DNA of 64,000 nt from Amoebophrya sp. A120 (GCA_905178155.1 CAJINV010000017.1:922722-986721), one strand, 5' to 3'. Positions 7,853 through 52,055 are shown, counted from the first letter of the stretch. Notes: generated by a model from the letters alone, not told the origin. Numbers and translations are program-made.

Positions 7853-10800
7853 ATGGCGAAGAAACCGCTCGTCGTTTGCGTTACCGGTGCCGCGGGGCAG
7901 ATCGGATATGCGATCACCCCGATGATCTGCAACGGGGACATGTTTGGTAAGGGTTTTTCTTGGGAGATTGATGGAATTATGCAACCAGCACAAGCAGTTC
8001 ATCTGTTCCTGTAGTACTCTACCTGGCATGAATATTAAAGCCGGGATGATGTTGATGAATTGTGTTGTCACATGGATCATCAAATGCTATATAAATTTGC
8101 AGGTGCGGACCAGCCTGTGATTCTTCATCTACTCGACTTGCCATTCGTCATGGAGTCTCTGGGTGGAGTGGTAATGGAGATCGAGGATGGCAATTACCCT
8201 CTGGTGTACGGGGTCGTTGCCACCTCCGACCCAGCAAAGGCCTTCACTGGGGCAGACTGTGCGGTGCTGCTTGGCGCCTTCCCAAGAAAACAAGGTATAT
8301 AGCACAGATAGAACACTGAAAGTGAACATGAAGCTTTTTGTGAAGCAAAACATGAAGTGATAGCTGCTTCTGTCATGCTGGACCTCGCTCTGGTGCTGCT
8401 GCTGCACAGAGCCACTGAACAAAACAGATGAAGAATTGTCGATATAGGAAGATTTTCAGGAGGTATTCTTCTAGAATGCTATTTTTTGCATGCGCAGCAA
8501 CGTGGAGTCAAAGGCCCACCCTTAGACGCGCCGTTTCCTTAAATCAGGTATGGAGCGCAAGGAGCTTATGGAAAAGAACATCGGGATCTTCAAGGCCATG
8601 GGTGAAGCCGTGGAGAAAAACGCGAACCCTAACATCAAAGTCTTGGTCGTCGGATATCCTGAGGAAAAACGTTCCCAGCACCTCATAGTCAAGGTTGAGA
8701 CTTTGCATCACAGACCCTGAATTTTTGGAATTCACGCATCATGACAAGTTTCTCTCTGTATTGTAGTGCAGATTAGCAATGACAGCCGTATCAGTCGTAA
8801 AGCCCTCGTCCCGTTATCCTGTCTGCAGCATCACAAATGCCAAACCACTACTTGGAATGCCTCAGGCTCAGCCTCTAATTGGGATGTACGTTACAAAGTT
8901 TTCTGTGGATGCAAATCCGCATGAAAGCTCTGGGATGCAGACGCTTTTACTCAGGATATGGGAAACCCAGCAAACACCAACGCCCTGGTCATGAGCAACT
9001 TTGCTCCCAAGGTAGATGAAATGGATTTTTTTTTGCGCTTTTTGTCATGCAAATTTATGCTAATATAATATCTCTACTTTATGTCATTTGGTCTTTGCAT
9101 GATGAAAACGAAAAACAACACCACGACTTCAATGACAAAAGGTGCCGAAGAAGAACTTCACGGCCATGACCCGATTGGACCACCATCGAGCGCTGGGTCC
9201 TATCAAAATCAAACCAAAAAAAACATGTTCGCATGAACAGTTCTGCATTAAGGAGTGCATAGTTTCTTTTGCACGAAATCACATTCAAAACGCGACCCAG
9301 AAGATTGAACCAGTGTAATTCTGCTCGTTCTTGCTCAAGTCTAGAGCAACTTGGTTTTTCCTCATGATGCGGTCTTGATAAATTCGAGAATGTAGGTAGC
9401 GCTACAAAAATCAACGACAACGTGTACTAGCACAACTTGAGAACCAGTGGTACGGAAGAAACTGGCTGCTGTAACGAAGTTAACGCGACTGATGTTTTCC
9501 CCATCCATACCTTAAATCGCGTTGAAAGCGGGCTGCAGTGTGAGGGACGTGCAGAATGTGATTATTTGGGGAAACCACAGCAGTACGCAGTATCCGGATG
9601 TGAATCACGCGACCGTGAGCGGCAAGCCGGTGCGACAGGTGTTGGGCGATGACAAATACCTATCGACAAGGAAAGTGAAGGTGCGTCGTCAACAGAAACT
9701 ATGGCTGAGTTGTGACTGTGAGACATACGCATTTCAAATTCTGTTTTGAAAGCCAAGTCAAAATATTTTCCCACGTCGACGTGTAGCAATCTTCTAGCTG
9801 GTCGTACGACAATAACGTAAAAGCAATTTGAGATGGTGCGTTGTATCATGAGGATGATCATCTTCGCGGCAACATTGGGTCGGCATGTAGTAGTTCATTT
9901 GCATCTTGGTCATCACGGTTTCATTTCTAACGCACTACTTTCCTTATCCTTAGATAGCAACTCAATGGGGAATTCATCGAACTGATTCAGAAGCGAGGCG
10001 CCGCGATTATCTCAGCACGTATTCTTATTTGAAAAAAAATGATATATGTTGACTTTTTGATGTGTTACGCCGGTCGCATGATAGTCCAGGCTTTTGATGT
10101 CACTTTGGCTTTTCTCTTCGGATTCGGAAAAACAACAATGAGAATACAGAAAGATGACTCTGCTCCAAGATGAACATCTAGATGTAGATCTACATCAAAC
10201 ACAAAGTAAAGTTTTTGGTCTCAACAGGTAAAGCATCCTCCGCACTCTCTGCCGCCCGGATATCACAACGAAAAAAGCTAGCCGTAGCTGCGTGCAATGT
10301 TTATTAAACTGCTTTATTTTCATGATGCAAAAATAAATCGGCGCCCGAAATGCGAGTGCGTCTTTTTTTGCATTTTGAAGGTGTGTGTCTCGAGTTTGTT
10401 GCAGCATGTTGATAACGGACACAGATGTTAATTCCCATTCCGAAGGTCCGCGCCGAGTCCTCTGCTGTTTGTGCATCTTGTAGGGGCGAGTGATGGTGCA
10501 TAGAAATAAATATGATGCGCAGCTACAGCTAGCAATGAGTTTCCGTGTGATAAAGTGCTGCGGTGACACACATGCGGTCGTGGTTCTGTGGAACGCAGTA
10601 TCAAGTGAAACAAAACTGCTCGCACCTTCGTCCCCATTTGCGATTTTTAAACCCGCTTGTGCTGGTCATAGTCAACCAGATTAACGGGCTCCTGCTCTTG
10701 CTGGGGTCAATAAAAAAGACAAGCAACAAGCTTATTCTTAAAAAAGTCCAGCACCTGGATGTGCGGCGCGCGGTATTTTGCCTTGCACTTGTAGTCCTCG

Positions 10801-11326
10801 TTTTTTGTATGCCTCATGAAACATATTTATACCCATATTGGATTGCCAGCCTCACAGTAGGTCACGAAAGGGACGACCTCACACACGAGTGAGAAGTTTT
10901 GTCAAAACTTGATACCGAGCCGGGGGAGTACGTGTCTATGGGGGTTTTGTCCGATGGAAACGAATACGGCGTCAAGCCCGGTATAAAGAATTTGTGTCAA
11001 CATTTCTTTTCTTTCTCTCTACAGATGCATGTTCGTCAGCAGTATCCACCGGCAAGTAGAAGAAGTTCAAGGTTGTCTCTGTGGCTGTTCTACTTCAGCA
11101 CTGGAAGTACCTAGGTGTCTTCACGACGGCAGTTTGAAGTAAGTACCTGACTGCTCCGCATCAACTTCACTACGCAGGTTTGATGTACTCCTTCCCCTGT
11201 GTGTGTAAGGAGGGACAGTGGTCGATCGCAAACGGGCTCAAACTGGACACTTTTTCGAAGGACAAGATGAAGGTGACCGAAGCCGAGCTCCAGGAGGAGA
11301 AGGATCTGGCCTTCTCGCTGATCTGA
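7853..11326 (+). CDS. MDH1: Cytosolic-type NAD-dependent malate dehydrogenase, multi-exon
   Basis: [94 protein letters not shown]; stop TGA 11324-11326. Confidence 0.95.
8655..8958. mobile_element. Introner-like TIR insert, family B
   Basis: tatcctgaggaaaaacg...cttttactcaggata; DR tcgga/tggga; restores VVGNP. Confidence 0.85.
9201..9509. mobile_element. Degenerate TAT..ATA insert/intron
   Basis: Element plus 5 nt removal restores RALGQIALKAG; TIR and DR decayed. Confidence 0.55.
9661..9956. mobile_element. Degenerate TIR insert/intron
   Basis: tatcgacaaggaaagt...actttccttatccttagata; +5 nt removal restores DKYLNGEF. Confidence 0.65.
10261..10552. mobile_element. TIR insert/intron, decayed DR
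   Basis: tatcacaacg..gctagccgtagctgcg / cgcagctacagctagc..cgtgtgata; restores SAA(S)AAVTHMRSW. Confidence 0.7.
10599..10914. mobile_element. TIR insert/intron
   Basis: tatcaagtgaaacaaaact...agttttgtcaaaacttgata; DR cgcag/ccgag; restores GT(Q/E)PGEYVSMG. Confidence 0.75.
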
Positions 11327-33892: not shown

Positions 33893-35368
33893 TAAAGAGA
33901 TCAGTTCTTGGAATGCCTTTTGGCTTTGTGTCTTCAACAAAAAAAACACATCAACCCATACGTATAAAAATTCTACTTAAGTACCTCGGTTATGTAAAGA
34001 TGAGAAATCACCACGGCCCGTATAACAAGTCAACATCGGGCAGCGTTTTGGTCATCATGAAAAATGGTGACCCGTGATCGCCATGAGCAAAAGCTATTTG
34101 AGACTAAGTACGCTAACGCTCCTACCAGCGAAAATTGTTTTTGTCTGTGACGGAAACACAAAGTGAAACGGCCATCACCTTCTAGATATGCCGTAGCAAA
34201 GAGACTGTTGGCACGTGAAATTCCCTTTCCGCGATCTATAAGTATAATCCAAAACTGGAGCGTCGTGATGTTCCTGACATGCAGCTGAATTGACTATGAA
34301 TTCCATATGCTCAAAAAGAAGTGGACAGAAGCGCGCGTGTTTTACTGATCACGAACGTGAGCAACGATCATCCATCTCCGTAGAAAAGAAACAAGACGAG
34401 AAGACACCTAGCTCTACCCTAGAGATGAACTCAGGCAAAGTCCACGTCCAGAGGCTCGCTAGATAAAAAAGATCTACTACATCATCATCACGACCTTTAT
34501 TTTGACTCGCCGCAAAGAACAAGAAACGCAAAGAGCTAACTGCGCACGACGATCACGATCCGTCACTAAAAAGAGTGCAATGGCAACCACTTATATTTTG
34601 TTTTTTTTCTCTTTCTCGGCAGCTCATTGTGGCTGACATTTTCTGATTTTTTCAACTTGATCCGGCTCGCAGTTGAATAAGCAAAAACTGCTATCTAAAC
34701 ACGTCCACGATCTGTTTCCCGCCACTATTTCCTTGGCCCGTGCAAGATCCTATTTTCAAAAAAAAGTTTAGGAGTTGGAGTATCCTTCATCGCACAACGA
34801 ACTATGCTTTCAGGCGACAGCACAGCAACATTTTTGTCACGCGTAAAAATGGTAAAGAGCTTTTATGATGTTGTGTTTTTGCCACCAGTAGTGTAGTAGT
34901 GGCACGAAACACGGCGGTATAGATACCCCTCAAGGAGAAGGGGTCAATCGCTCGAAAGTCATCTTCAGCAACTACAACATCATCATCTTCCGAGTAAATT
35001 AGAAGTAGCTGTGTAGTACCTCTAGTAGGATAAAAAGACCAAATAGAATTAGATCCTGGGCAGACTCACATTCTTCAGCCCCAATTATCAAGTTTTTTGA
35101 CTATCGCTATCCAGCAAGCGACCATAAACTAAGAGGCTACGACGTGAAGAAGAACATGAGAATGCGACGTGTCAAAAGTAGTACTAAGCGGCACTATAAT
35201 TTGTCTAGCAGGAGCACTAGTTTCTTCTCAGCGACTTTTGACGACGACCCGGGCAAAGAGTAAACCAAGAGTCATTTCTGACGAGACGAACTCGAACACG
35301 GACTAACAGGAGCTTCTAAAGCAACGACGACCTACTAAGGGCGACTCAGAAACACAAACAGAACCAGC

Positions 35369-38300
35369 ATGGCGGACCCCGACCAGCCCGAGGTGGCCGA
35401 GGAGCAGGCCTACGAAGTGGAAGCGTTGCTGGAACACAGAATCCTCGAGGGCAAGGACTACTTTCTAATCAAGTGGGTAGGTTACGACGACCCGGACTTC
35501 GTGCCAGAAGAAGACTTGGGCGATGCGTATATATTACTTTAAAAATAACGACCACAGCTGTTGACGTCTTAGTCTTTTTATTACTTTTTGTTTATGATTT
35601 CGTTTCAGCTTTTTCTTTTCAACCAGTATGAGAATGAGTATCTATGATCTTTGCTGAACCACATAAGATGAACAAGAAGTCGTGCCTGCAACAAGTTCAT
35701 CAAAGCGATCTTCATGGTGCATCCAACCATGAAAACGAAAATAAAAATCCAAATCCAAATCATACGACCACTGCAGTGACTGGCTGGTCGCTCAAAAGGC
35801 GGAGTTGAAAGCCCGCACGGCGTCGCTGATCGCCACGGGGCAAATTCAACCGGATGAGGAGGGTATTGACCACGAGTTTCTCGGCACCGCCGGGCTTTCC
35901 CAACAAGAGCAGCAGCGCATTATCTCCCCAGCAAACGCAACTCACGATGGCGACCGTCGTGGTCGGTCCGCACGCCGCAACCAGGAAGACCCGGCCCGGG
36001 CGAGTAAGCGGCGAAAACGGGCAGGGAAAGAAGAAGACGAGGACGCAGGAGAACTGCAACCAGATAACAAGAAGGAGAAAAACCAGAACAAGCAAGCGAA
36101 AAGAGATCGGGCGAAGTCTGCGAGGTCAGTTGTAGAAGAGCATGATGGGGGGCCGTTTGAGCTGCAGAACCAGAAAAACCGGAAGGACAAGTCGAAGAGT
36201 AAAAAACGAGCAGAGTCGGGGACAACTTCTTCGCGTCCTCGCGGAGCAGTAGACGAAGTGGAAGCTGCTTCTTCGAAGCGGGACAAAAAAGCAGATGCTG
36301 GTGGTCAACAACAGCAGAAACGAAAAAGGAAGCAAGAAGACGAATCCAGTTCGTCGGACGAGTCTGCCTCAGAAAGCGAAGATGAGAGCAGTAGCAGCGA
36401 AGAACTTCCGGGTCCAGGGAAAGGGTTGAAGGGGGGAAAACTCGGACCCGGCGGAGCAATGGGGCCCTTTGCTGGGAAGGCTGGTAAAAATCGCTGCTTG
36501 TTGTACAAGCTTTCTCGGATAATGAATTTCAATTTAGACTCTTGGTTCTACATGCAGTATTTGAAAGAACAATGTGTGTTCAGATGCAGGCTTTTCGTTT
36601 TCCTCCAGTTTGAAAGAGAAAAAAACTTCCAGGCGTGTTTGGCAAGGGCATTCCGCCCATGATGGCGTCCGCGGGTATTAAGGGCGGGAAGGGATTCCCC
36701 GTGAAAGGCCTGCCACCCATGATGGGCATGAAAGGACTTCCCTTCGGGAAGTCAGCTAAGGGCATCGCGCCACCGGTACATATGATTTGTGTTTTTTCTC
36801 ACGTCTTCGATTATTTATCCAAGTAATTCGAAGCAGTAGTTCCTCGGGCTTCATCGTTTTTGTAATACAAAGTTGACGCAGCTGGCTCCATGCACCTCCT
36901 GCTCCATTTACATTTTTGATGAATTCCTCCGAAAAAATGTACTATCAGATCGCCGTCCCCCCGGGCCAAGGGCGTGCGCAAGAGGAAGACAAAAACAAAA
37001 TCCAGAACCCCCTGGTCGTCGCCAGCGAAAACTTCGCGAAACGGGAACGCACGCAGCTGAAGGAGTTCGTGCTAAAAATGCGGAAGTTTTACCGAAGAAA
37101 GAAGTACGCGTTTGAAGCCGTCACCGGGATAGCGACGCCGGCGCTGGAAGACAATGTTGATGACAAAGACGGCGCTGACAAGGACATGAACCATGCCGAT
37201 GGAACAACGAATGACGCGGAAGATCAAAAATTTAAGCTCTCTTCTTCTCCAGGCTCTTCTTCCAACTCCGGAAATAATAATGACGGCGGGGGTGACAAAA
37301 ATATGGAGCTCGCTGTGGTGTCCACCAAAAAAGCCGATCTACATATCAACGAGCCGTACTCGCAAGAGAAAAAACAGATGCGGGACTGGTTCGAGAAGAA
37401 AAGGAGCGAGTTTCTAAACGCGATCTTCGACACCAAAGGCTCGATGCTGGAGGGGCAGGAAAAGGAGGCGTTCATGAAAGCGAAAGACATGATGACGCAC
37501 CGAGGAGTCCCAGACATCCTGCCCAGTGAGCATCTGGTGCTGGAAGCGCTCTGGCTCATGGTGTGGGATTGCGTGTTGCCCGACCCGGAAGAGGAGACGG
37601 AGGGGAAAATGCGTATAGAAAATCTTAATATGTTGATTATTTCTCCTGAATTGTTGAGACGTAATGCTGGTGGTGCACTTTTTCTTTTTGCATGTCAAAA
37701 GGGCCGCCTTCGATTTACTTTTGTTGTAGCGCCGCGAGGGCATCATGTGAGTGTTGAGAAAATCAAAATTTTATCTAGAATATCGAAACCTATCAACTCT
37801 TCCACAGTCCAAGCTATGCAGGCCGATCTTGCTTCGCCGCGTGACGCCAACGACCCGATTTTGTCCAAATTGAAGCAGGACGCCCTACCAAAAGGAAAAA
37901 TCCCCCCTCCCCATATCAAAACGAAGTTTCTGATCATGTTGGATTTGCGTACACAAATCAGATTTATCTTGCTGGAGAGGAATCAATGCAGGCCTATAAT
38001 ATACTATGCCTGAGTAGGGAGGTTTTGGGCTAGGCACTGAGCATGGCAGGCGACTAGTCTGTAGGGCCAACCGCATCACAAACCGCCTGCAAAATGCGGC
38101 GGACGCTGTGGAGTTGCGTTCTTGCAAGACAGAGACGATTTGTGGCCACAAATCAGCATTGCAAATTTTCTACGATGTATCTTTTCGGTTTGGGGAGGGG
38201 GATTTTTCCTTTTGATACGCCGAGGACCTGATCAACATGCAGCAGGCGTTGAAGATATCAAGCGTAAAAATGTCTGGGTCTGGAAGAATTCATGTCTGTC

Positions 38301-41300
38301 ATGCTTGTCTGGCATGAATCTTAAATCTGTCATGCACGTTACCCAAGAGCTCCGTTTTTCTGTGATGCAGAAGCGCAGTTTGTCATACAGAATAGGCAAC
38401 ACCTAGGAGCTCAGAAACTTGTCATGCTGAGCCAGCATTTGTAGCCTGGCCCCATCATGAGACGCCACCCAGCATCACAATTTTCCAGACCCAGACACTT
38501 TTACATTTGATAGAAGATCGGGAAAAGCGAGGTCGTCGCCTCCCTGCTCGCCATGGCGGAGGAGGAGCTGCCCGCGTCGGTCTTGTCCGGCAAGGCGTCG
38601 TTGGTCCCCAACATCGAGAGCTCCCCCGTGCGGGGGCAAGCGACTCTCGTCCGGCCGTCCGCCATCGCGAGTCCCAGTGCGGGGCAGTACGGAGCCCGGA
38701 TCAAGCAGTCGCCCGCCCCGAACACGACCAACGCGATGGAAGACAGCGAAGGAGGCGGCGGAGGGAACTACCCGGGGATTAACAGCAAACACGCGTCGAA
38801 GAACTCGCTCAGATCGGACAAATCGAGCGCTGCCAAAAGGAGAAAGTTGATGCAGTTGTCCAGACGGGGGAGTAAATTCAACGAGACGAGTGGTACGAGA
38901 GCAGTAGACAATCATCTTCACGACGCAACAAGGAGCAAGAAAACCGCGAGTGTTTCTGCCTCTGCGCACGACGAATTGTCGAAGCACATCGTGCCCGGGC
39001 GGAAGCAGCCACACCCAGACAAGGATCGGCTTGGGCTGTTGTGCTTTTTGGATGAGTTGTCCGACTCGGATGAGGAAGACCTGGAGCCGGCCGACGCGGC
39101 CGGCCGGGTGATGGTGCAATCCAGTCCGAACATGATTCTCGATAGTCCGAAAATGATGCTTGGTGCGGCCGCGAGTGGTAGAAGTGGTGGCGTAACGACC
39201 GACCTCCGGGACGAGAAACTGCGCCATCCGGATCGGTTTCTCCTCCCACCCGCTTCCAAGGCGCGGGCTCTCGCCGAGGGCCCGGAGAAATTGCTCCAAC
39301 TTCTCGTCGACGTCGCGAAACACCACAAGCTGCGGCCGAAGCAGCCGAGACGGAAGAATTTGCTCCTGACCGCCATGGAATTGCTGTGCAAACGGGCCGC
39401 CGAGCAGATCCAAGCCACTCAGCAGGCGACGAAACTGTTTTCGCCCCTGGAGGGGATGACAAAAATCTACGCGCACCTCATCGCGAAGGAAATCAAGAAT
39501 CTGGACCAGCACCCGGAGGTGAAAAAGCATTGGGGAAACTTGATCGCGCAACTGTACAAGGAGTACAACCCCCAGAAACTTGAATCCGTGCCAGAACTGC
39601 TCGTGAAGTACCACAACAAGGAGCGGCTGCTTTATCTCGGTATAATTATGGTCTAATGCTTATGCTCAGCACAGCAAGGGCAGGACGAGGTTGTCTCCAT
39701 TTATGTCGCAGAAGTGCGATAAAAAACTTTTCTTCGTGATGCAAAAGTTCTTGAGCAGGCGCGTTGATCCTTGTATGCAAAGTGAAAGTTGTCGAAATAA
39801 TATATCAGGTATCTGCGACAAGTACCAGGTGCAACCCCGGTCTGACCTCCCCGAGGAAATCAAGGCCAGGGTGAACGGCGACGCAATTACCCCCGGCATG
39901 GCGAAACCGAACCTGCAGCCGCATTTTCCCTTGAACAACAATGATTATGGAGCGGCTGGGGCACCTCTGGCGAACGGGATGAACAACGCGGGCAACAATA
40001 CCACTTCTGCAATGGCAAACGGCACCGCCACAGGATCGGGGTCCTCTGCGACCTCGGGGGACGACCAAATGAATAACGCGAATGACAACAACGAGCGGAT
40101 TTTCCTGGATGAAATGAACGACGACTATTTCAAAGAGTTCCAAGAACTTTATTTCTCGGAGCTCGTGAAGCTCTACGAGCGGTTCAACCCGATGAAGATC
40201 GACAAGATTCGGCCGATATCAAATGTAAAAATGTCTGGGTCTGGAAGAATACGCGATTTGTCATGCAGCTTTTCCATGACCCATAAGGTCTGGAATGCAG
40301 GACCTACCATGACAGATTCTGCGCGATCTCTCTCATGCCATTCCTGCATGAGAAACTCCCTCCCGACTTGGTCAAAACTGGACGACTTTTGGTAATCATG
40401 CAACACAGATTTTTGCATGCTTCAGATTTAGCATGATAAGTTGCACTCTTCCAGACCCAGACACTTTTACATTTGATAGCCGATGCTGGAGAAGAACAGG
40501 ACCCGGGAACAATTGCTTTTCGAGGGTGTTTATCCTGTGCAAAAGTATCGTACTCGTACTGATCGCATTCATGCATTACAAATTTCATTCTCAGGTTAAA
40601 TCCGCATTGCAAATTTTCTTTCATCTCATGCTGAGTCATGCGATTTATACTAGTACGATACTTTTGCAATGCATAGGGTTTGTGACAAATACGAAATCAA
40701 GCAAACGGACGAGTTTGCGCTGCTGAATTTGCCTCTGCAGCGGAAAATCGCGGTGCTGAAGATCAAGCACACGATAAAACGCATTTTCGAGTTGAAAAAC
40801 CCGGAAAAACTGTCAACTCTTCAGACGGTGATGCAGAAATACCACGGAAAAGAGGAAAAATTGTACACTGCGGTGTGCACGAAATATTCGGTTAGCGAAA
40901 ACGACTTATTGATTCGGGAATTGAAGCAGTGCCGCGACAACGCGGAGAAAAAGGAGAATAATAAAGAAGAAAAGCTGGATAAAGAAATCGGCACTAAGAA
41001 TAAAGACGCAGCTGATAAGGACCCTTTGACCGCGAAAGAGAGGAAAAAACAGGAAAAGCAGCGCACGGAAAAGTTGAAGGCGGCGATTAAGGACATCTAC
41101 AAGCAGAAAAACCCGTCGAAGACAAAGGAATTGTCGAAGACTATTTTTCCGAAGTACTTGAACCGGGAGCACGAGTTGTACACAGCATTGTGCAAGAAGT
41201 ACGACATCCCCGTCGATAAGAAGCTTTTGCCGACTGGTGGTACTAGCTCTTCGAATCAAGACAATGCTGACGGTGACTTCGGTCCCCAGGTCGCGATGAA

Positions 41301-44300
41301 GGCCGCGGCGAACAACAAGGACAACAACAATAAAGCTGGAACAACAACATCAAATCTCCCACCCGATAATTCGGACGAGGAGCATTCCGCCGCGAAGCCG
41401 GACAGTGGGCTGGATTACGAGAAACTCATCTACGATTTGTACAAAGAGCACAACCCGACCAAACTGGAAGATCTTCCTGCTCTGCTCCAAAAATACGAGG
41501 GGCAGCAGGACGAACTGTACGAACGGGTGTGTAAAAAGTACAACGTGGAGCCGATCAAGCCGCAACTACAATCCCCCGCCCAGTCTTCCGTTGCGGACCC
41601 GAGCGAAGCGCCGGAAGACGAGCTGAAAGGGCCGTTTGACGACGACCCGAAGTACTTGCAGTATGCGCTGGATGTACTGTGCATTCTACTGCGGTCCTTG
41701 TCCAACTTGTTTCACATGAACGCAAATCTGCACTTGCCCTACAACCAGTCCGCGACCATGCTGAAGGCTTTGCAGAAACAGAAAGAAGTGGTGCACAAGA
41801 AGAACGGTATGACATTGTTCTTTCTTTGGATACTTGTGCCTGCACTTATAACAGTAAAAACAGGTCGAGGTCATGAGGTGCAACAAGTGCTGCTGCGCGT
41901 AGTAAGTACTACTGCCATCTCGATCTTCTACCTCTGGTGTAATGTAAACCGATGAAAAATGTTGCACATTGTTCTTGCAAAACCGTAGTAATAGTAAATC
42001 ATTTGTATTGACAGACCGGTCCTACAAGTCTCTGTACAAATCCTCCTGGGATCTCTCCGTCCTCCCCCCGGACCAACTCCGCGACCTGCAACTGGCGTTG
42101 AAGCCTCGGAAGATGCGGGAGCTCGAGGACAAACTCGGCAGCCGGGTGTTCCTCAGCTACCAAAATGACGTCCTGGAACTCATATGGATTGTAAAAATGT
42201 CTGGGTCTGGAAACTTGTGATGCTGGGTGTCGTATCATGAAGAGCCCACAAGTGCTGGCTCAGCATGACAAGCTTTTGAGCTTCAAGGTGTTGCCTATTC
42301 TGCATGACAAACTGCGTCCCTGCATGACAGCAAAATCGGGCTATTGGGTAGCGTGCATGACAGATTTATGAGTCATGGCAGACAAGCATGACAAACATGC
42401 ACTCTTCCAGACCCAGACATATTTGCATTTGATAACTCAAAGGGTCCAACAAGCAGCAGATGGACCAGGCCATCCTGCTGGTCTCCCGCCTCTTATGCAC
42501 TGCAAAAGTATCGTGCTAGTATAGATTGCAATACAAATTGGCTCAGCATTACAAGTTGAATTTGTTTTGCAGATTTGCCTTGGGAACTAGATTTGTAATG
42601 CATAAATGCAATTAGTACGCTACGACTACGATACTTTTGCACAGGATACCTCTTGGACGACATCAACGGCGACAGCGACTTGGAGTCCGACAAAGACTAC
42701 GGCTGCGACGAGTCGACCACCTGCCTCTACACCGCTTGCACGGAAACCTACCACGGCGACGACGTGCTCCCCATGTACGTGAACCGCCAAAACATCCTCC
42801 TGGACATCCGGATATGAATTGCAAAAGCATCGCAATAGCATGAATTGCATTACAAATTTGCTCAGCATGAGAAATGGAATCTGTAATGCTGCTTGACGTT
42901 AGGAAAAAGATTTGTAATGCATAACTGCAATTACTACGAGTGCGATGCTTTTGCACTGGATACCGGACCCCCTTCGACCATTTGCGACACAAGTACAGCT
43001 GCAGCATCCGGTTCGACTACCAGGAGCCGGTGCTACCCGCGGAACTCCGCGACAAGCCGGAGGAGGACAGAACCCCGATCGAGGACTTCTTCGAAGACGG
43101 CATCACGCCGGAACGGCTCATGGCGCTGCAGAAGGAAATCCACGAGGACGCTTTGCTACCCTTGTTCAAGGACGAGTGGCTGCGGAACCTGAACGCGAAA
43201 AAGATGCGCATGAAGGGCGGGATCGTTTTCAACCTGGAGTTATGGATTGTAAAAGTGTCTGGGTCCAGCACCTCTGGAAACTTGTGATGCTGGGTGACGT
43301 ATCATGAAGAGGCCACAAGTGCTGGCTCAGCATGACAAGCTTTTGAGTTTCTAGGTGTTGCCTATTTTGCATGACAAACTGCGTTTCTGCATGACAGCGA
43401 AGTTAGTGTGGCTCTTGGGTAACGTGCATGACAGATTTATAAGAGTCATGCCAGACAAGCATGACAAACGTGCACTCTTGGAGACCCAGACATATTTGCT
43501 TTTGATAGGAGTTCGACCGGCGGGCCAACACGTTGGCGTTGATCGCGGTCGCGAAGTCGAAGGTGGCTCTGGACTATGGAAGTGTCAGGATTGAAATCGA
43601 CAAAGTTGAAATGATTTGTCATGCATAAAATGGATGCCAGTTGAGTTGGAAGCCCACTTATCAAGCGGCGCATGACAAATTTTCCGAGCACCGGAATCCA
43701 TTTTGTGATGCTGTTTGGGCGCAGAAGACTGCTTTTGTCATGCGAACTTAGTAGCTCTATTACTATTTCAAACCCTAAACAGGCTCACAATCGGCCTCGC
43801 GTGCTATCCCGGCAAGACAGGCACTTCATGCCTTGCATTTTATGCATGACAAATCATTTCAACTTTGTCGATTTCAAACCTGACGCTTCCATATAGACCG
43901 GATCGCGGATAAGGTGGGGGAGGCCTTGGAGCATGGCGCGAAGTACCAGTATTTGCCCTTCGTGGACCGGGACAAGCTGAAGGAAATGAGTGTCGGGCCC
44001 TTCGGCCCCGCGTGGATCCGAACCGACGTGCACTTTCCGCCACCAGTCAACCAGAAGGCGATCCGCAGTTATCACCAGTCGCAACACCAGCAGGCGGTAA
44101 TAGAATGAAAATTTCGTATATGATTTGTCGTGCTTTATTGGTAGGAACAACCAGTGTCAGTGAAGAACCTATGTGTGGTGCCTCATGTTTATGTTCTCAT
44201 GCATGTTTCCTAATTGATTTATCGACTTCGAAACAAAACAGATCCACCGCGACGTTTCGTACACGTCTGATGAGTTCGAGCCGGAACACGATCGAAACGA

Positions 44301-47300
44301 GGACACGACCGCCCCCGACAACGTAGAAGATGAAACCCTTCTCGACCACCGGCCGTTAAAATTGACCCGGCAGATGATTTTCAACCACATCCAGAAGCAG
44401 AAAGCGCGATATGAAAATACCAATGAGGTTCCCATGGGCGACGACAAACACACGAAGTTGAACATCAGGAACTTAATCGATTTCCAGACTTATCAACTGT
44501 AAAAATGTCTGGGTCTGGAAGAATCCAACTTGTCATGCTGATTTTGGATTCTAAAAAAATCTGTATTGCATGAGCAGCAAAGAGAGTCCAAGTTTTGCTA
44601 CACGGAAAGAGCATTTGTCATGCGGTATAGGCATCAGGAAGCCCTCACAAAATCTGTGATGCTAGGGCATGCATCGCAGACATCAGGAGTCATGCAAAAT
44701 GTGCATGACAAGCCTGGCAATCCCAATCTTCCAGACCCAGACATTTTTACATTTGATAAGACCGACACGCTGCACGACTGGGGCAAGGTGAAGCAGAGAC
44801 TGGACAACGCGGTGTTCGACCCCACGGCGGAGCAGGGGACCAAGCAGTCCATCCGGGAAAGACGAGCCTGGAAGTACTGCAGCAATCCGTGGTTGGAGAA
44901 GAAAATTGAGGAGAACTACCGGGAAAACGCGGTGTGCGTGAACTGCCACGAGTTTGGCCACACCATCGAGGAGTGCGATAAGCCGTGCCGGTTCACGAAG
45001 GTGGACTTGGCAAACGCGGAGCCGGAAGACCGGACGGAGGACGCGCTGTATCGGAGGGTGGAAGAGGCGGTGGAGAAGCTGGCGAGTTGGAGAACCAGCG
45101 ATACGTGTGTCACGACAAGGTTCTCGATGTTCAAAATGCAACAACTACTCCACAAGTTGAAGCAGTGGGGCGGCGTGAGTGTCGAGGCGTTGCGCCGAAT
45201 GCACCTACCGCCGGAGAAAATCACCGCTTTAGTGGATGAGATCACGGTGTTGTCACAGTCGGGGTTGGTGTTTCCGGCCGAAGTCGACCCCTTGTGTCAA
45301 GTATCATTTGTAAAAACGTCCCCACCCAAGAGTTGTAATGCAAATCTGCATGCTGAAAATGTTTCTCATGCAGAGACCCATGAGAAGCAGTCTCTAGTCG
45401 TGTTGTGGGATTTGTGATGCTAGAATCATCATGATATGCTAGAACTGTGATGCTGCTGAACAAGCTAAACAGGATTACACTGCGAGGCCTAACTTGTCAT
45501 GCGCAACAGCAAAAGCTGACAGATTTGTCTAGCAGATTTCCCAGCTTGACTCTGGTGTGGGGACGTTTTTATTCAGGATATCAAGCGCTGTTGAAAAACC
45601 CCATGCTACTCCACGACCAGACGAGCCTGACCAACGCCCAGAATTACAAGGGCCAAAGAGACGCGTTCGGGGGGCGGCAGCCGCCGTTACCAGTGCAGCC
45701 TTTGTCGGAATTTATCGTGCGAAAAAAGTGTTTCACTGTAAGGATTTTGCAAGTTTGGCATGACAAGTTCGTTACACATGACAGGGAAAACTTGCCATGC
45801 GAGGTTCCTAAGGGAAAACACAGCTAAAAATCGCCTGTCTTGCATGTGTAGCAAGACAAACACTTCTGAGATGCAGTTTCTGCATTACAAGTTTACAGTG
45901 AAACAGTTTTTTCTTGCGATAGAATTCCGGAAGGAGCAGGGGATTCCAGACCCGCTGACGACCGCGATCAAGATATCCTGAGTAAAAACGTACCCACACC
46001 AGAGTTGTAATGCAGATTTGCAAAGACAGGAAGACTTGTAATGCGCATCCCCATGAGAGCCATTTCCAGTCGTGTTTTGGAATTTGCGACGCTGTGAACA
46101 GGATGAGCAGATGAATCTGTGATGCGGCTGCACTTGCTAACCTGCACTACACTGCATAGCGCAGCTTGTCATGCGTGACTCACAAAACTCCTAGGCTTGT
46201 GTTGCAAAATCCCCATCCTGACTCTGGTGTGGGTACGTTTTTACTCAGGATACAAGAACGCAAGTCACAGTAGCTCGTCGTCTAGCGGACCAGGAGGTCC
46301 GGCGGGAACCACCACCGCGGCGGCATCAACTGCAAAAACCCTTGCGCCGACCCTATCGCCCACGACAACCGCGGCAGCGGCCTCCTCCGGCGATGTTGCG
46401 ACGGTCCATCCTGACAGTCCGAACAAAAGAAGGGATTCGCTGTTCCCAGATTTCTACAACGACGACGATATGAGCAGTAGCGACGAAGAGGATAGCTTCC
46501 TTATTCCGAGTCTGAGGAAAAAGGAAGGCGAGCCGAGTTCTGCAAAGAATAACAACACATCATCTTCGGGCCAAGTAAATGATCAAAATGCAGGAAACGC
46601 CGACAATAACAACAAGAACACCGGCGCAAATACTAAACCTTTATCTGACCTGAAACCGGAGCCGCCGATTCACGGCCCGCCGCCGGTTCCAATCAGCGAC
46701 TGGAAGCACGTGGAGAAGATCTTTTTAGAAGACTACCTGCAACGGTATCTCTACGGCGCCAATGTGATGTCCCGGATTTTGGGGAGGGGCGGTGGGAACC
46801 ATAAACTAATGGAGCAAGAATCCGGAACCCGGATATATTTCCGCGGGGTCGGGATTTCCCCGGATTTGCGGAAGTTTCCGGAATTGGACCAGTTTTGCAT
46901 ATGCATTGCAAAAGTAGCATCGTACTCGTATACATGCTAGTCTTGCATCACAGATGTAGATTCTGACCCTATGCCGCTCCGGCCCCTGCGGAGGCTTGCC
47001 TCCCCAGCGACGCCGGACAATGGCAATGTCGGCGCGGTTGTTTTAGCATCGCAGAAGATGTAGATTTATACCTGAATCACCATGACACATTCCACTTTTC
47101 ATTTTGGAAAAATTATTTGCCATGCGATTTATACTAGCACGATACTTTTGCAATGCATATTACAACGACAGCAGCAAGATGATCTGGGACGACGACATTG
47201 AGAGGGACCGGCATAATGGCCGGGTCTCGATCACGAGCTCGGTACTACACAGGGACGGGACAATCACGTCGAGAACCCAAACGGAATACGCGGACTCGGA

Positions 47301-50300
47301 GAAGAGGCTGCACATGCTGGTGCGCGCGGAGTCGCCCGAGCAGGTGGTCATCGTGAAGAAGAAACTGAAGGAAATCATGGAAAACATCGACTTGGGGCTC
47401 CAAGTCGACGCCAGAATCCAGGATGTTTTCAACACGAGCAACCAACAAAATCACGACCAGGGCGGGCGAAACTCGGGAAACAACCTCCCCGCCGGCCCCG
47501 AGCACCATCCCTTCTACCCAATGGTCCCCTTCGAGGCGATCTACACCACGGAAGTTCCGGTCCGGGAGATCAAAAAGGACTGGAAGTTTCAGTTCCCGGC
47601 TTCCGAGGAATTTAAACCGCTCGCCGCGAAGATCGACCGGTTCTGCAAGGGATATTCGAAAGAAGTGGACAACTTTGTTCAATTCGCGAAGACCTTCGCG
47701 GAGGAGCAACAGACGTTGACACAGCAACAAGACGCAGCAGCACAAGCACTTCCTGACGTCGATAAAAAGAACCCCAACGCAGAAGTTGATGAAGACGGCG
47801 AGGAAAACGAAAATAATGGCAGCGGCACGACGACCAGCGCGACCGCCGCGAAGAAGATGACGAAGAAGCAGAGGGAAAAGGAGCAGCAGGAGAATCTGTT
47901 GAAGGAACTGGAGGAGCCGAAGGACTTGGTCCGAACCAATTGGTTCGGGAAACCACAACTGAGGTCCGAATTCCAGAACAACATTTTCGAAATCCCGGGG
48001 TTGGACCTGCCGGATTTCGAAGCCTGCGGCGATCCGGAATTCAACGACATCATAAACGCGTTCATCGCCATGCTGTCGGACTGGCAGCTATCCACAGTAA
48101 ATTTCCCGTACACGACGTACAAATGCGGTCTCTGCATGACAAAACATGGCTTCGATCCTACCTTAGCATGACAAGTTTTACGGCGCCCTATATTGGTGAA
48201 ATTTGTGATCCATGCATCTTGTACATCATGTACGGAAAATTTGTATTGCATAGTAGCGCCCGTACTGGTTTGAGCCGAATGAGTTGATCGCCACACAATC
48301 GTTAGTCCACGGTCCGTATGAAATGTAAAAATGTCTGGGTCTGGAAGATTCTGAAATTTCTCATGCATGTTTTGCATGACCCAGGATGTCTGTAATGCAC
48401 GACCGCGCATCACAGATTTTGAGAGGGCTTCCTGATGCCTACTCCGCATGACAAACGCCCTCCCCGCGTAGCACAAACTAGACTCCTCTTGCGGGTCATG
48501 CAATGCAGATTTTTCTAGAGTCCAAAGTTAGCATCACAAGTTGCAATCTTCCAGACCCAGACACTTTTACAGTTCATAGCCCGGTGGAGGTCCCGGAGGA
48601 GGCGAATTTATTGAAATTAATCGACCAGGCGGAGAACGCGAATTCGCCAACAGCGGGTGGCTTGAAGAGAACTGGGTCCTCTAATAGACCCGGTTTGAGC
48701 GGCTCCTTGAAGGGGAAGGCGGCGTCGACGCTACTCGCCGCACTACCCAAGCCGAAAGCAGCGATGGCAAAGCCAGCAGGAGCAGGTGCTATTGTGAAAA
48801 GAAGTAATAAGTTGCCTCCAAATATTTCCGCGATTGTGAAGAAGAAGATGAAGAAGTCGAGGAAAGCGCGGCGAAATCGCTACAGCAACAGCTGCTTCGC
48901 GAACAGTTTGCTCGCCGGGCACCATGTTGCTCTGTCCGACGCCGCGGTGGACCGGTTCGCACGGGTTTTGTTTCAGTCCGGACTTTTACCCTCAACTGTG
49001 ACGAGCTTCAAGCAGGTCGCTGACGGGTTGCGTGCCGCGCGCGGGGTGGTGCGGTGTGAGAAGCACGATGAGGAGTTGTTGATGATGATGAAGTACCCCT
49101 GGGCGGTGTATTCGGATTTGCACAAGTCCCAGTCCGTGAAAGACAAGGTCGGATACCCCTCAGGGCTAGCGGATGTCCACAAAGAGTTGAAAATGCTCGG
49201 CAGGAAAGCGCCCGTGGAGATCGTGGTGGAAGAAGAAGGCGCCTTGGAAACAAATTTCGGCACCGCAGCAAATAGTAAAATCGGCCCCATACCCTCCCCC
49301 CATGCATCCCCGAGACAGTCGCCGAAAACCGGTGCGGTTGTGCCGGCCAAGGCGACAGGAGCTGCGAGCAAGCCGCTGAACTCCCCGCAAATGTCCGCTG
49401 CACCTCAGGTGGATAAAAAAATCACGGCAACCACCATGTCTGAAACCACACTCGCGCTGCAGCGACCGGTGGGGAACAGGAAGACCCAGCTTTGCTACTA
49501 CGGCTACTTGGTCGACTGGCGGTTGCCCAACCCGCCGATGGAACAGAATCTGTACGCGCAAGAGCACGGGCTGGACGCGCTGAAGATCGACCAGCCGGAG
49601 GCGCCGATCATCCCGCAGAGACCCAAACAGCCGGTCATCGATCAACAAGCAGTAGCCGCGGAAAACCTGCAGAAGGCGTCGATGGCAAAGGCAGTGTCGA
49701 AAGCAGCGGTCGTCGACCCGCCGGCAGCTGCCAAAAGTGGTGGCGCGCAGACTGGTCCTTCTGCACCTGCCGGGCTGGTGGCCGCGGGGTCACTACCACA
49801 GCAGGGCATGATGAACAACAATAATCCGATGAATCAACAGCGAATTATGAATGCAAACAACAACCCGATGATGAATCAGATGCAAAATAACAGCGGGCAA
49901 AATTACAACATCAACCAGCCGATGATGATGAACAATCAGCAGACTAGCAACATGATGATGGGCATCAACCCCGCCAACAACAATAGCAACCTGCCGCCTA
50001 ATCCCATTCAAGCGACTTCCGCGAAAGCGCCGGCGTTGCTGATGGTCGAACGCGAGAAGCAGATTGGCGAAAAAACGGGCATCACCGCGAAACTGGTGGA
50101 TGCGGGTGCCGCGCAGAACATCGTCGTGTTGGAGAGCGAAAGAGAGGAGCAACGAAGACGACAAGAGGAACTGGCAAAGAAGCAGGCCGAATTGGAGCAA
50201 AAGAGGAAAGCGGAAGAGGAGAAAAAGCGGAAGGAGCAGGAAGAGGCCGAGAAAAAGAAGCGCGCCCAGGCGGAAATCGCGGCGCTCGCGATGCAGGCGA

Positions 50301-52055
50301 TTAACCCGAATAAGGCGGCGGAGACGATGAATAAACCGTCGGAGACGATGAATAATTCTTCATCGGCAGGTAGTTCTTCCTCCGGTGCTGGGGCAGGAGG
50401 GCCACCAGGTCAACAACAAAATCAGCAGGACCCGACGAACACGGCCGTTTTCCAAATCGAGAAGTGGCTGAACGACGAACAGAAGCAGGAGCTGCAGAAG
50501 ACCATCGAGCTGATCAAGCAGTGCAAGGGGAAACACCAGACGCTGCAAAACATGGGCGTCATGCAGGGCAAGGGCCAGCTGCCCGGTGGCATGACGGGCG
50601 AAGACGCGTTGCGGAAGATCCAGGAGTATTTGGCACAGCAATTCATCAAGCTCCGCACCTTGAAGGGCGCGGCGGCCTCCCGACAAGCGGAGATCGAGAG
50701 GGAAGAGCAGCGGAAGAAAGGGCCGCTGCTGATGAACCAGGGGCCGCAAATGCAACTATTGAAAACTCTCGTCCAGGAGCAACCCGACCGACCCGCGATC
50801 GACCCCCGGCAAGCGGCCTTAGCCGCGGCAAATCCAACGGGTCCGGTATTGAACTTCGGGGGAGGTGGATCCTCGGCGTCGAGCTCCAGTGCAGCAACAG
50901 GTGCAATAAACCTTGTCAACAACCAGCAACCCGCCAGCAGCAGTTCTTCTTCTCGACCCGTTTCCGCCGCGGCCTTGCTGGCCGGCGGGGAACTCGGGCG
51001 GCAGCAGTTCACGGGGAACGTGTTTCTCCCTCCGGAAACCTTCCCGGCCCGGGATCTGCACAAGAAGATTGCGGGGGAGGACGATGCATACTTCAAGCAC
51101 ATCTTGACAAAATGGCCCGGCACCGGCGTCACCTTCCACGGGCTGGCGCACGCGCAGGCGCCGGCGGATAATCGGTTAAAGATCATCGTTTCCTCCACGG
51201 ACCCCGACATGGACAAGTTCAAAGAGGCTTTTTCCAACGTGGTGGATCTCGCCGCCACGGTGACGACGGTGGTCTTACGAGAGCTCGGGGTCCCAGACGA
51301 CGAAAGGGAGAGAATCAAGAAGAGCATGCGCACGGAGATGTTCTCGATTGACGCCAACGGGACTCAGAAAAAGATTACCAAGGCGGATTCGGACGAAGAA
51401 GACACGGTGGAATCCGACGCAACCGTGCAAGGTAGCAGTGATGAAGATGAGTTTTAGCCGATTTTTAGACGATACTAGAAGTGGTGTTACACCACTTTTA
51501 TAGATGAATAAACCCAAATACACCACGTGTATTTGGGTTTATTCATGGTTTTAGTATAGTAGTCTTTTTACCGCATGGTAATATCTATATGGTGACATCA
51601 CATGGACATGGCATACGAGTTGTTTGATTGATTCGCATAATCTCTAGTAAGAACCGAAAGTGAAACATCCCGCACAGAAAAATGGTTACAGCTGCCACAC
51701 ATTTTGAACACATTTGACTACTTTAACATCTGCTACCGCTGCTGCAACAGAAGCTCCCTGCCCCAGGAGGAAGATGCATATCCTGCATGTAAGATGATCA
51801 ATGTAAATTTTTCCTCTGTCTGACACAGATGACGAGAGTCCCGTAGCTGGTGGAAACAACAACACCACCAATGGGATGAACCAGCCTGGTGGACCCCGCC
51901 CAAGTGGAAGTCCGAACTTCGGCCCTAAGGGAGGAGGTGGAAACGCTATGAACAAAGGAGGTGCTAATTATGGCAAAGGTGGTGGAAAACTTGGCGGGGG
52001 CATGATGAATAACAAAACCGGTGGTGGAGGAGGAAAAAAGGGAGGTTGGTGGTGA
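35369..52055 (+). CDS. Giant (~3,700 aa estimated) protein: chromodomain, 5 helical NPxK repeats, CCHC zinc knuckle, KH domains, Q/N- and G-rich tails; ~25 exons
   Basis: YEVEALLEHR..YFLIKWVGYDDPDFVPEEDL (35411-35520); CVNCHEFGHTIEEC (44935-44976); MSRILGRGGGNHKLMEQESGTRIYFRG (~46767-46847); frame is continuous after removing 16 TIR inserts and ~8 other introns. Confidence 0.8.
37886..38217. mobile_element. Introner-like TIR insert (TAC start)
   Basis: taccaaaaggaaaaatcccccctcccc...ggggagggggatttttccttttgata; DR cgccc/cgccg. Confidence 0.85.
38256..38512. mobile_element. Introner-like TIR insert, family A (core a)
   Basis: tatcaagcgtaaaaatgtctgggtctggaa...ttccagacccagacacttttacatttgata; perfect DR gaaga. 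Confidence 0.92.
40217..40478. mobile_element. Introner-like TIR insert, family A (core b)
   Basis: Same TIR; perfect DR gccga; restores IRPMLEK. Confidence 0.92.
40531..40675. mobile_element. Introner-like TIR insert, family C
   Basis: tatcctgtgcaaaagtatcg...cgatacttttgcaatgcata; DR gtgtt/gggtt. Confidence 0.88.
42183..42434. mobile_element. Introner-like TIR insert, family A (core a, reverse orientation vs 38256)
   Basis: Perfect DR actca; restores LELKGSNK. Confidence 0.92.
42494..42648. mobile_element. Introner-like TIR insert, family C
   Basis: Perfect DR cctct; restores SRLLDDIN. Confidence 0.9.
42813..42962. mobile_element. Introner-like TIR insert, family C
   Basis: Perfect DR ccgga; restores LDIRTPFD. 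Confidence 0.9.
43241..43507. mobile_element. Introner-like TIR insert, family A (core a)
   Basis: Close copy of 42183-42434; perfect DR ggagt. Confidence 0.92.
43575..43893. mobile_element. Introner-like TIR insert, family D (reverse orientation vs 23989)
   Basis: tatggaagtgtcaggattgaaatcgacaaagttgaaatgatttgtcatgc...tgacgcttccata; DR tggac/tagac. Confidence 0.92.
44491..44758. mobile_element. Introner-like TIR insert, family A (core b)
   Basis: DR agact/agacc; restores DFQTDTLH. Confidence 0.92.
45302..45580. mobile_element. Introner-like TIR insert, family B
   Basis: tatcatttgtaaaaacgtcccc...ggggacgtttttattcaggata; perfect DR tcaag. Confidence 0.9.
45713..45921. mobile_element. Introner-like TIR insert, family F
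   Basis: tatcgtgcgaaaaaagtgtttcactgtaa...ttacagtgaaacagttttttcttgcgata; perfect DR gaatt. Confidence 0.9.
45974..46252. mobile_element. Introner-like TIR insert, family B
   Basis: tatcctgagtaaaaacgtacccacaccagagt / actctggtgtgggtacgtttttactcaggata (32-bp perfect TIR); perfect DR caaga. Confidence 0.95.
46900..47159. mobile_element. Introner-like TIR insert, family C, enlarged
   Basis: tatgcattgcaaaagta...tacttttgcaatgcata; DR ttgca/ttaca; extra GC-rich core. Confidence 0.85.
48089..48252. mobile_element. Introner-like TIR insert, family G
   Basis: tatccacagtaaatttcccgtaca...tgtacggaaaatttgtattgcata; DR gcagc/gtagc; restores DWQRPYWFEP. Confidence 0.85.
48317..48578. mobile_element. Introner-like TIR insert, family A (core b, reverse orientation vs 44491)
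   Basis: DR gtccg/gcccg; restores VHGPVEVP. Confidence 0.92.
51504..51546. repeat. Perfect 20-bp hairpin in last intron or 3' region
   Basis: atgaataaacccaaatacac-cac-gtgtatttgggtttattcat. Confidence 0.9.

What the first reader, a model, noticed from the sequence alone, without database searches (positions are those of the whole stretch)
42183..42962. Three adjacent inserts with neither GT nor AG in any frame-preserving register
Seen: with DRs actca, cctct and ccgga, none of the six sliding junctions gives a GT donor or an AG acceptor, yet the protein reads through (LELKGSNK, SRLLDDIN, LDIRTPFD). Inference: excision is guided by the TIR stem, through a modified spliceosome or a non-spliceosomal endonuclease/ligase route (analogous to euglenid nonconventional introns). 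Excision at DNA level is not excluded.
Basis: partly seen in the sequence, partly recalled or inferred. Interest (0 to 1): 0.8.

Follow-up and report, generated by a model that had tools for sequence, protein, structure and literature searches.

The report
Hairpin transposon introns without splice signals
Three hairpin-shaped mobile elements interrupt a giant gene of the marine parasite Amoebophrya and belong to an already described class of introns that lack the usual splice signals; decayed copies in neighbouring conserved genes indicate that they are likely cut out of the RNA at one fixed position measured from the element's own ends, probably by a modified spliceosome.

Summary
The three inserts are real: TAT...ATA elements (252, 155, 150 nt) with terminal inverted repeats and perfect 5-nt duplications. 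No product-identical junction offers GT or AG, though shifted in-frame GT/GC-AG pairs exist, so the title overstates. They are 3 of 16 such elements in one 3602-codon frame that stays open only if each is removed with one duplication copy. A window exon is 100% identical to a protein labelled Amoebophrya sp. A120, whose non-canonical introner elements are published (PMC7789003). The class is known, and lacking GT and AG is ordinary (40 of 124 siblings). New here: elements with decayed duplications in malate dehydrogenase fix the cut at N|TAT...ATA-NNNN, 1 nt before and 4 nt after the element. Related elements lie in both orientations, and old copies keep TAT/ATA after the long stem has decayed. 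This points to strand-aware RNA splicing from a terminal motif. A modified spliceosome is my best guess (about 0.5) over a euglenid-like separate machine (about 0.37). No RNA read covering these junctions was obtained. The scan has noted similar hairpin introns in other genomes.

The parts
42183..42434 (+). Element 1, 252 nt, TAT...ATA with about 30-nt terminal inverted repeats; predicted intron 42182-42438 (AT...TC, 257 nt)
   Evidence: 38 of 287 sibling elements cover at least 80% of it, best 90% identical
42178..42182 (+). 5' copy of the ACTCA target-site duplication (3' copy 42435-42439)
42494..42648 (+). Element 2, 155 nt; predicted intron 42493-42652 (TT...TC, 160 nt)
   Evidence: 31 full-length relatives at about 80-83%
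42489..42493 (+). 5' copy of the CCTCT duplication (3' copy 42649-42653)
42813..42962 (+). Element 3, 150 nt, same family as element 2 (79% over 86 interior nt); predicted intron 42812-42966 (AT...GG, 155 nt)
42808..42812 (+). 5' copy of the CCGGA duplication (3' copy 42963-42967)
42439..42492 (+). 54-nt exon between elements 1 and 2 (boundaries under the inferred register)
42653..42811 (+). Exon between elements 2 and 3
35745..51457 (+). Host gene: one 3602-codon open frame after removing 16 TAT...ATA elements (each plus 5 nt) and 7 GT-AG introns; five internal repeats of about 40 aa; weak KH-domain hit
40217..40675 (+). Two sibling elements (40217-40478, 40531-40675) inside one of the host protein's repeats; removal plus 5 nt aligns by eye without a gap to the uninterrupted upstream repeat
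48089..48252 (+). Sibling with imperfect duplication: the 3' copy would put an in-frame TAG, so the cut lies after position 2 or later
7853..11326 (+). Cytosolic malate dehydrogenase gene with 5 GT-AG introns and 5 TAT...ATA elements (8655-8958, 9201-9509, 9661-9956, 10261-10552, 10599-10914); supplies the register
9201..9509 (+). Old element with 1 of 5 duplication match and decayed inverted repeat; only a cut after position 4 gives the conserved Gln (71 of 73 homologs); positions 0-3 give a stop, position 5 gives Pro

Best explanation
The three inserts are non-autonomous terminal-inverted-repeat transposons (Amoebophrya A120-type introner elements) that sit in exons between 5-nt target-site duplications and are likely removed from the pre-mRNA together with one duplication copy at a fixed register, one base before the opening TAT and four bases after the closing ATA, most likely by a modified major spliceosome. 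Shown: anatomy, 5-nt duplication, multi-copy families, insertion in both orientations, no sequence preference in the duplication, and the need for exact removal to keep the reading frame. Inferred from protein homology at sibling elements: the register. Inferred from the asymmetry and from published RNA-seq support for the class: removal at RNA level. Least certain, the enzyme: in this register the element's N-UAU lies exactly on the +2 to +4 positions of this genome's ordinary donors (all 12 checked are GUA, 6 GUAU). I propose that a spliceosome relaxed at +1, -2 and -1 reads UAU at the 5' end and measures the 3' cut from the UAU/AUA closing helix, so that any insertion site and either orientation is rescued. 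Class membership about 0.95, RNA-level removal about 0.92, fixed register about 0.8, spliceosomal chemistry about 0.5.
For: Frame: one 3602-codon ORF only with all 16 elements removed plus 5 nt; +0, +3, +4, +6 or retention truncates it in every case. Precision to the codon at siblings: RPB1 exons on both sides of L065:3001-3262 each carry the same Lys (yeast 830), so exactly one copy must go; L024 beta-oxidation enzyme is gapless to P0001, P0002 and P0004. Register: the malate dehydrogenase model is stop-free and best at position 4 (298 of 328 and 293 of 326 identities to P0126 and P0127, no gaps), has 1-2 stops at positions 0-3 and two fewer identities at 5. 9201 allows only 4; 10261 excludes 5 (Thr in 0 of 70 homologs); 9661 and L024:1778 need 4-5; 48089 needs 2 or more; L024:3305 needs 1 or more (Gly in 18 of 18). 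All 5 non-canonical introns of malate dehydrogenase, located by homology, have TATC at +2 to +5 and [C/G]ATA at -8 to -5. Orientation: 7 of 12 related pairs within the one + strand gene are inverted. Duplications show no base preference. Canonical donors GTAT 6, GTAA 4, GTAC 1, GTAG 1 of 12. Literature: A120 repeat motif 'TAT + 7 nt + at least 3 A', U1 snRNA not detected, nearly all other spliceosome parts present; all 9 A120 'predominant' motifs in Table S4 have T at +2 (PMC7789003). A spliceosome handling mostly non-GT/AG introns is reported in tunicates (PMC13326754, abstract).
Against: No RNA read or ortholog covers the three junctions themselves; their register is extrapolated, since their duplications are perfect. 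Position 4 versus 5 rests mainly on two elements of one gene. A codon-usage test over imperfect duplications gave no support, and at position 3 favoured the 3' copy in 6 of 6 (p = 0.03 uncorrected; the set includes probable false pairs). 17 of 29 mismatches are synonymous, more than I would naively expect if one copy were free (not formally tested), which could mean some sliding. For the spliceosome: ends in this register are arbitrary (24 different dinucleotide pairs in 28 window elements), with no clear AG or G enrichment in the sense direction (AGG 5 versus mirror CCT 3 of 160). From general knowledge (recalled), G+1 and the 3' AG are normally needed for the second step. No branch point was identified. 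Element 37886 starts TAC, not TAT, and still must be removed.
Confidence: 0.5

Rival explanations
1. Same elements and same fixed RNA-level register, but removed by a dedicated non-spliceosomal machine (endonuclease plus ligase, or a second spliceosome-like complex) that measures from the UAU/AUA helix, as proposed for euglenid nonconventional introns.
For: Total freedom at +1, -2 and -1; orientation independence; terminal pairing predicted (UAU/AUA pair probability at least 0.8 in 17 of 28 window elements). The Euglena code N3CDG...CH'GN5-6 is likewise a paired internal motif with a 3' spacer 2-3 nt longer than the 5' spacer (PMC12501133), and those introns are reported as circles without lariats (PMC11282704).
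Against: The register places UA(U) on the canonical donor positions (about a 1 in 6 coincidence). Element 9201 is not predicted to pair its ends at all. No candidate enzyme was looked for or found. A120 keeps U2, U4, U5, U6 and 83 of 89 spliceosomal proteins (PMC7789003), though its ordinary introns need these anyway.
Confidence: 0.37
2. The spliceosome uses shifted canonical sites near the ends (for example GTAAAA at 42191 with CAG at 42456), losing or gaining a few residues.
For: Stop-free, frame-preserving GT/GC-AG pairs exist for all three inserts; no ortholog was found to exclude them at these sites.
Against: At every sibling that could be tested against homologs or internal repeats, removal is exact to the codon. 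Published RNA-seq% of A120 introns non-canonical.
Confidence: 0.05
3. Elements are excised precisely from the DNA in some life stage or nucleus (like ciliate internal eliminated sequences), so transcripts come from empty alleles.
For: Inverted repeats and target duplications are DNA-transposon features; the joint table of run X1 was cut (15 shown, 595 not shown), so empty alleles are not excluded.
Against: The cut is asymmetric (1 nt and 4 nt) in the direction of transcription although element ends are symmetric and relatives lie both ways round. X1 has flat depth of 45-56 in element-free bins, and none of its 15 best-supported joints joins exon to exon.
Confidence: 0.04
4. The inserts are not removed: the gene is a pseudogene hit by miniature transposons.
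For: No expression data were obtained for this gene; no homolog was found among proteins of 159-2000 aa (the product would be longer).
Against: A 3602-codon frame is intact around 16 insertions; siblings sit in malate dehydrogenase and in the bridge helix of RNA polymerase II RPB1.
Confidence: 0.02

Closest known systems
Introner elements among the non-canonical introns of Amoebophrya sp. A120 (Farhat et al. 2021, PMC7789003)
   Same: TAT + 7 nt + A-run inverted repeat, short direct repeat over the exon borders, hairpin, about 240 nt, many families, non GT-AG, mixed with canonical introns in one gene; a window exon is 100% identical over 47 aa to a protein labelled A120. These inserts are very probably among the 29,850 elements counted there.
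   Different: The paper reports 3-5 nt repeats and calls the splice position relative to the hairpin variable or unknown (Fig. 3 legend). Here the duplication is strictly 5 nt (241 of 366 at 5 nt; 4 at 4 nt; 0 at 6 nt) and the register appears fixed. The figures themselves could not be seen and may already show part of this.
Euglenid nonconventional introns (PMC12501133, PMC11282704)
   Same: No GT-AG, paired internal motif at fixed spacers from both borders, longer 3' spacer, likely origin from miniature transposons, coexistence with spliceosomal introns.
   Different: Motif is TAT[C/G]...[C/G]ATA with spacers of 1 and 4 nt rather than CDG...CHG with 3 and 5-6 nt; unrelated lineage; circular products were not tested here.
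Introners with target duplications in Aureococcus, Symbiodinium, Polarella and Florenciella (PMC9860276)
   Same: Transposon with target duplication whose splicing removes one copy, leaving the mRNA unchanged.
   Different: Those carry or co-opt GY/AG sites; here only 6 of 124 elements have GT-AG in one register and the duplication has no base preference.
Non-canonical introns of the tunicate Fritillaria borealis (PMC13326754, abstract only)
   Same: Mostly non GT-AG introns coexisting with a conserved spliceosome core.
   Different: Those have specific alternative ends (AG-AC, AG-AT per PMC11282704); here the terminal dinucleotides are arbitrary.

Membership tests
Amoebophrya A120 introner elements | Terminal inverted repeat of 8-20 nt or more, starting TAT, 7 variable nt, then at least 3 A | tested here: met
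   (A at positions 11-14 in 85-95% of 150 oriented elements); definition
Amoebophrya A120 introner elements | 3-5 nt direct repeat overlapping the exon-intron borders | tested here: met
   5-nt repeats at all three; 241 of 366 across the sample
Amoebophrya A120 introner elements | Repeated in the genome as families | tested here: met
   38, 31 and 31 near-full-length relatives among 287 sampled elements; about 500 stored stretches estimated to hold the family-1 end
Amoebophrya A120 introner elements | Borders other than GT-AG | tested here: met
Amoebophrya A120 introner elements | Host is Amoebophrya of the A120 type | tested here: met
   Window malate dehydrogenase exon 100% identical over 47 aa to P0123, labelled Amoebophrya sp. 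A120; 85% to the A25 protein
Amoebophrya A120 introner elements | Junction supported by RNA-seq reads | tested here: inconclusive
   The three raw RNA runs laid gave 4, 0 and 0 reads, so no test; no other RNA was laid
Miniature inverted-repeat transposable element | Short, non-coding, terminal inverted repeats, constant target duplication, many copies | tested here: met
Miniature inverted-repeat transposable element | Cognate autonomous transposase element with the same ends | tested here: inconclusive
   Only one distinct element over 700 nt in 472 kb sampled (L065:4024-4995), with no long coding segment; no whole genome available
U2-type spliceosomal intron | GT/GC donor and AG acceptor | tested here: not met
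U2-type spliceosomal intron | Branch point and lariat intermediate | not testable with these tools
   needs lariat sequencing
U12-type intron | AT-AC ends with extended consensus, and minor snRNAs | tested here: not met
   No AT-AC in product-identical registers of the three; 6 of 124 siblings; U11, U12, U4atac and U6atac reported absent
Euglenid nonconventional intron | N3CDG...CH'GN5-6|R code | tested here: not met
   Ends are N-TAT[C/G]...[C/G]ATA-N4; code
Euglenid nonconventional intron | Excised as full-length circle without lariat | not testable with these tools
   needs RNA of this strain
Self-splicing or other catalogued RNA family | Rfam match | tested here: not met
   0 matches at gathering threshold in the 64-kb window

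The most novel reading that the evidence does not exclude
Amoebophrya A120 has a second, spliceosome-independent mRNA splicing system with a minimal symmetric code (N-UAU[C/G]...[C/G]AUA-NNNN) that ignores all exon and terminal bases, works on either strand of the insert, and so makes any insertion of this transposon family harmless, even in RNA polymerase II; it would have arisen independently of, but in parallel to, the euglenid system.
Probability: 0.35. Interest if true: 0.85.

Novelty: already known. Interest (0 to 1): 0.42.

Why it matters
The elements are known, but how tens of thousands of them are spliced without GT-AG is an open question. A fixed register (1 nt before TAT, 4 nt after ATA), orientation independence and survival of the terminal motif after stem decay turn it into specific tests: where to look for a branch or circle junction, which bases to mutate, and what rule to give gene finders (the public malate dehydrogenase model reads through one such element). 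Either outcome, a spliceosome indifferent to both terminal dinucleotides or a separate splicing machine, would extend what is known of mRNA splicing chemistry.

Tried and rejected
RNA: no RNA holder listed on record. Three raw RNA runs with the same species label gave 4, 0 and 0 reads on 39900-48700, which is no test. No whole genome is held, and the loci's records could not be searched, so no empty-site ortholog and no transposase search. Protein search with the exon after insert 3 found nothing among 159-2000-aa proteins; the length-free search did not complete, and the Atlas gave no usable hit for another exon. So no ortholog tests the three junctions. Codon-usage tests of the register over imperfect duplications were uninformative or slightly contrary; products with a stop by register 0-5 were 2, 1, 1, 1, 0, 0 of 26. 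The idea that duplications are selected for AG or AGG was rejected: AG at positions 3-4 in 18 of 160 (background 6.4%) against mirror CT in 13, AGG 5 against CCT 3, and codon phase can explain the excess. The genome-wide orientation count (851 same, 888 opposite) depends on noisy strand calls and non-independent pairs, so I lean on the single-gene count instead. No shared 3' motif between canonical acceptors and element ends was apparent. No Rfam family. The family-1 end has 0 exact matches in viral contigs. My first malate dehydrogenase model had coordinate errors and was replaced. RPB1's imperfect-duplication element appears to lie inside a canonical intron and was dropped as uninformative.

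Full report
OBSERVATION. The three inserts are at the stated place: 42183-42434, 42494-42648 and 42813-42962. Each begins TAT and ends ATA, is flanked by a perfect 5-nt direct repeat (ACTCA, CCTCT, CCGGA), and has 20-21 of 26 terminal positions complementary. There are 7, 7 and 6 product-identical registers, none with a GT/GC donor or AG acceptor. The title's wording is too wide: stop-free in-frame GT/GC-AG pairs exist at shifted positions (15 of 42, 22 of 33, 12 of 40 pairs within about 60 nt). The inserts are AT-richer than the exons, closed in all frames and fold better than shuffles (z -3.4, -2.8, -6.3).

CONTEXT. The inserts are 3 of 16 such elements in one gene. Removing all 16 with 5 nt each, plus 7 GT-AG introns, yields a single 3602-codon frame (35745-51457); changing any one removal to +0, +3, +4 or +6 nt, or retaining the element, truncates it. 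Two siblings interrupt one of five internal protein repeats, and their removal aligns it by eye without a gap to the intact upstream copy. A pattern for the family-1 end returned 147 loci from metagenome contigs; the 80 listed all come from one assembly prefix. In the window plus 145 loaded loci (472 kb), 366 TAT...ATA inverted-repeat pairs were found without any repeat condition: 241 have a perfect 5-nt repeat, 4 a 4-nt one and 0 a 6-nt one (shuffled mean 1.0, max 6). The repeat has no base preference and the two element ends have the same profile.

IDENTITY. A malate dehydrogenase exon of the window is 100% identical over 47 aa to P0123, labelled Amoebophrya sp. A120; an exon of locus L024 is identical over 93 aa to another A120-labelled protein. 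Farhat et al. 2021 (PMC7789003) report 65% non-canonical introns in A120, 29,850 introner elements with inverted and 3-5 nt direct repeats, the motif TAT + 7 nt + at least three A, no detectable U1 snRNA or minor spliceosome, and an unknown mechanism and border position. I saw its abstract, passages, sections 10 and 11 whole, supplement passages and supplement part 3 of 5, but no figures. The finding is therefore a known class in its known host.

PRECISION AT SIBLINGS. In RNA polymerase II RPB1 (L065) the exons on both sides of an element each align to the same bridge-helix lysine (yeast 830), so one repeat copy must be lost; three further RPB1 elements also leave an open frame at +5 nt (not aligned to homologs). 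In L024, removal plus 5 nt is gapless against a transcript-derived homolog and the A25 ortholog.

REGISTER (new relative to the text I could read). The window's malate dehydrogenase gene has 5 GT-AG introns and 5 elements whose repeats have decayed to 1-4 of 5 matches. Cutting all five after repeat position 4 gives a stop-free 328-aa protein, gapless to P0126 (298 of 328) and P0127 (293 of 326); positions 0-3 give 1-2 stops and position 5 two fewer identities. Element 9201-9509 alone allows only position 4: Gln, found in 71 of 73 homologs, against stop or Pro. Element 10261 excludes 5 (Thr in 0 of 70), 9661 and L024:1778 need 4-5, 48089 needs at least 2, and L024:3305 at least 1. The intron is thus N-TAT[C/G]...[C/G]ATA-NNNN, which for the three inserts means 42182-42438 (AT-TC), 42493-42652 (TT-TC) and 42812-42966 (AT-GG). 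All nine 'predominant' A120 motifs in the paper's Table S4 have T at +2, as this register predicts. Four of the five old elements have lost most of the long inverted repeat (5-9 of 22 matches) but keep the terminal four bases. Against: codon-usage tests over imperfect repeats gave no support, and position 3 favoured the 3' copy in 6 of 6; 17 of 29 mismatches are synonymous; element 37886 starts TAC. Five literature searches showed no paper stating this register, but subscription papers, figures and the journal version of Roy et al. 2023 (listing only) were not seen.

MECHANISM. Related elements lie in both orientations in the same + strand gene (7 of 12 pairs inverted), yet the cut is asymmetric in the direction of transcription, which argues for a strand-aware RNA process (inference). 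The DNA-like run X1 shows flat depth in element-free bins and no exon-exon joint among the 15 joints shown, with 595 not shown. All 12 canonical donors checked are GTA, half of them GTAT, so the element's TAT falls on donor positions +2 to +4. With U1 undetected and the rest of the spliceosome present, and with tunicate precedent for a broadened spliceosome (PMC13326754, abstract), I put a modified spliceosome first (about 0.5). Arbitrary terminal dinucleotides (24 pairs in 28 elements) and the parallel with the Euglena code and its circular products keep a separate machine close behind (about 0.37); for these I saw the abstract, introduction and discussion of PMC12501133 and passages of PMC11282704. 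Transposition is presumably DNA-based. PMC12130899 (passages) describes A120 introners with inverted repeats and homology to Copia/Gypsy elements, reminiscent of Ginger transposons, but no autonomous partner was found here. PMC12005148 (passages) notes that other Amoebophrya strains use GT-AG; PMC9860276 and PMC11453091 were read as passages.

LIMITS. No RNA read and no ortholog covers the three junctions, so their removal and register are inferred from the reading frame, from siblings and from the published class. Earlier scan notes describe similar hairpin introns in other genomes, including Prorocentrum; I did not test them.

VERDICT. Real, already known as a class, unremarkable as a trio. 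The fixed register and minimal terminal code make the open mechanistic question more directly testable. Interest 0.42.

Noticed in passing
window:10599-10914: The public protein P0123 reads through this element and ends in a wrong C-terminus; removing it restores a 328-aa malate dehydrogenase gapless to orthologs.
   Followed up: yes
window:35745-51457: Host protein of up to 3602 codons with five repeats of about 40 aa (NP..K...KY.....LY..VC.KY), a CCHC-like knuckle near 44935 (seen by eye), and a weak KHDC4/BBP-like KH hit (E 1.2e-5, below cut-off) next to element 46900. Function unknown; possibly RNA-binding.
   Followed up: partly
window:37886-38217: Element whose left end is TAC rather than TAT but must still be removed to keep the frame.
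   Followed up: partly
L065:4024-4995: 972-nt element with 26 of 26 terminal matches in RPB1; it carries about 700 nt of extra sequence between two copies of a roughly 19-nt stretch (seen by eye), suggesting a nested insertion.
   Followed up: partly
L065:5540-5779: An element apparently sitting just inside a canonical GT-AG intron of RPB1, 7 nt from the donor.
   Followed up: no
window:8295-8547: Canonical malate dehydrogenase intron that begins G-TATAT and contains element-like CATGA motifs; possibly a decayed element turned canonical.
   Followed up: no
loci L001-L147 and window: The first base of the duplication falls on codon positions 3, 2 and 1 in 68, 51 and 31 of 150 oriented elements, a phase bias that may reflect target-site preference.
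   Followed up: no
window:1604-3128, 19140-20390, 35363-35527, 53130-54311, 63374-63772: Pfam hits for neighbouring genes, all on the + strand: cytochrome b5-like (two), lysine methyltransferase, chromo domain, glycosyltransferase family 2, RING-variant.
   Followed up: no
window:46900-47159: Member of the 150-nt family enlarged to 260 nt by a GC-rich internal stretch.
   Followed up: no
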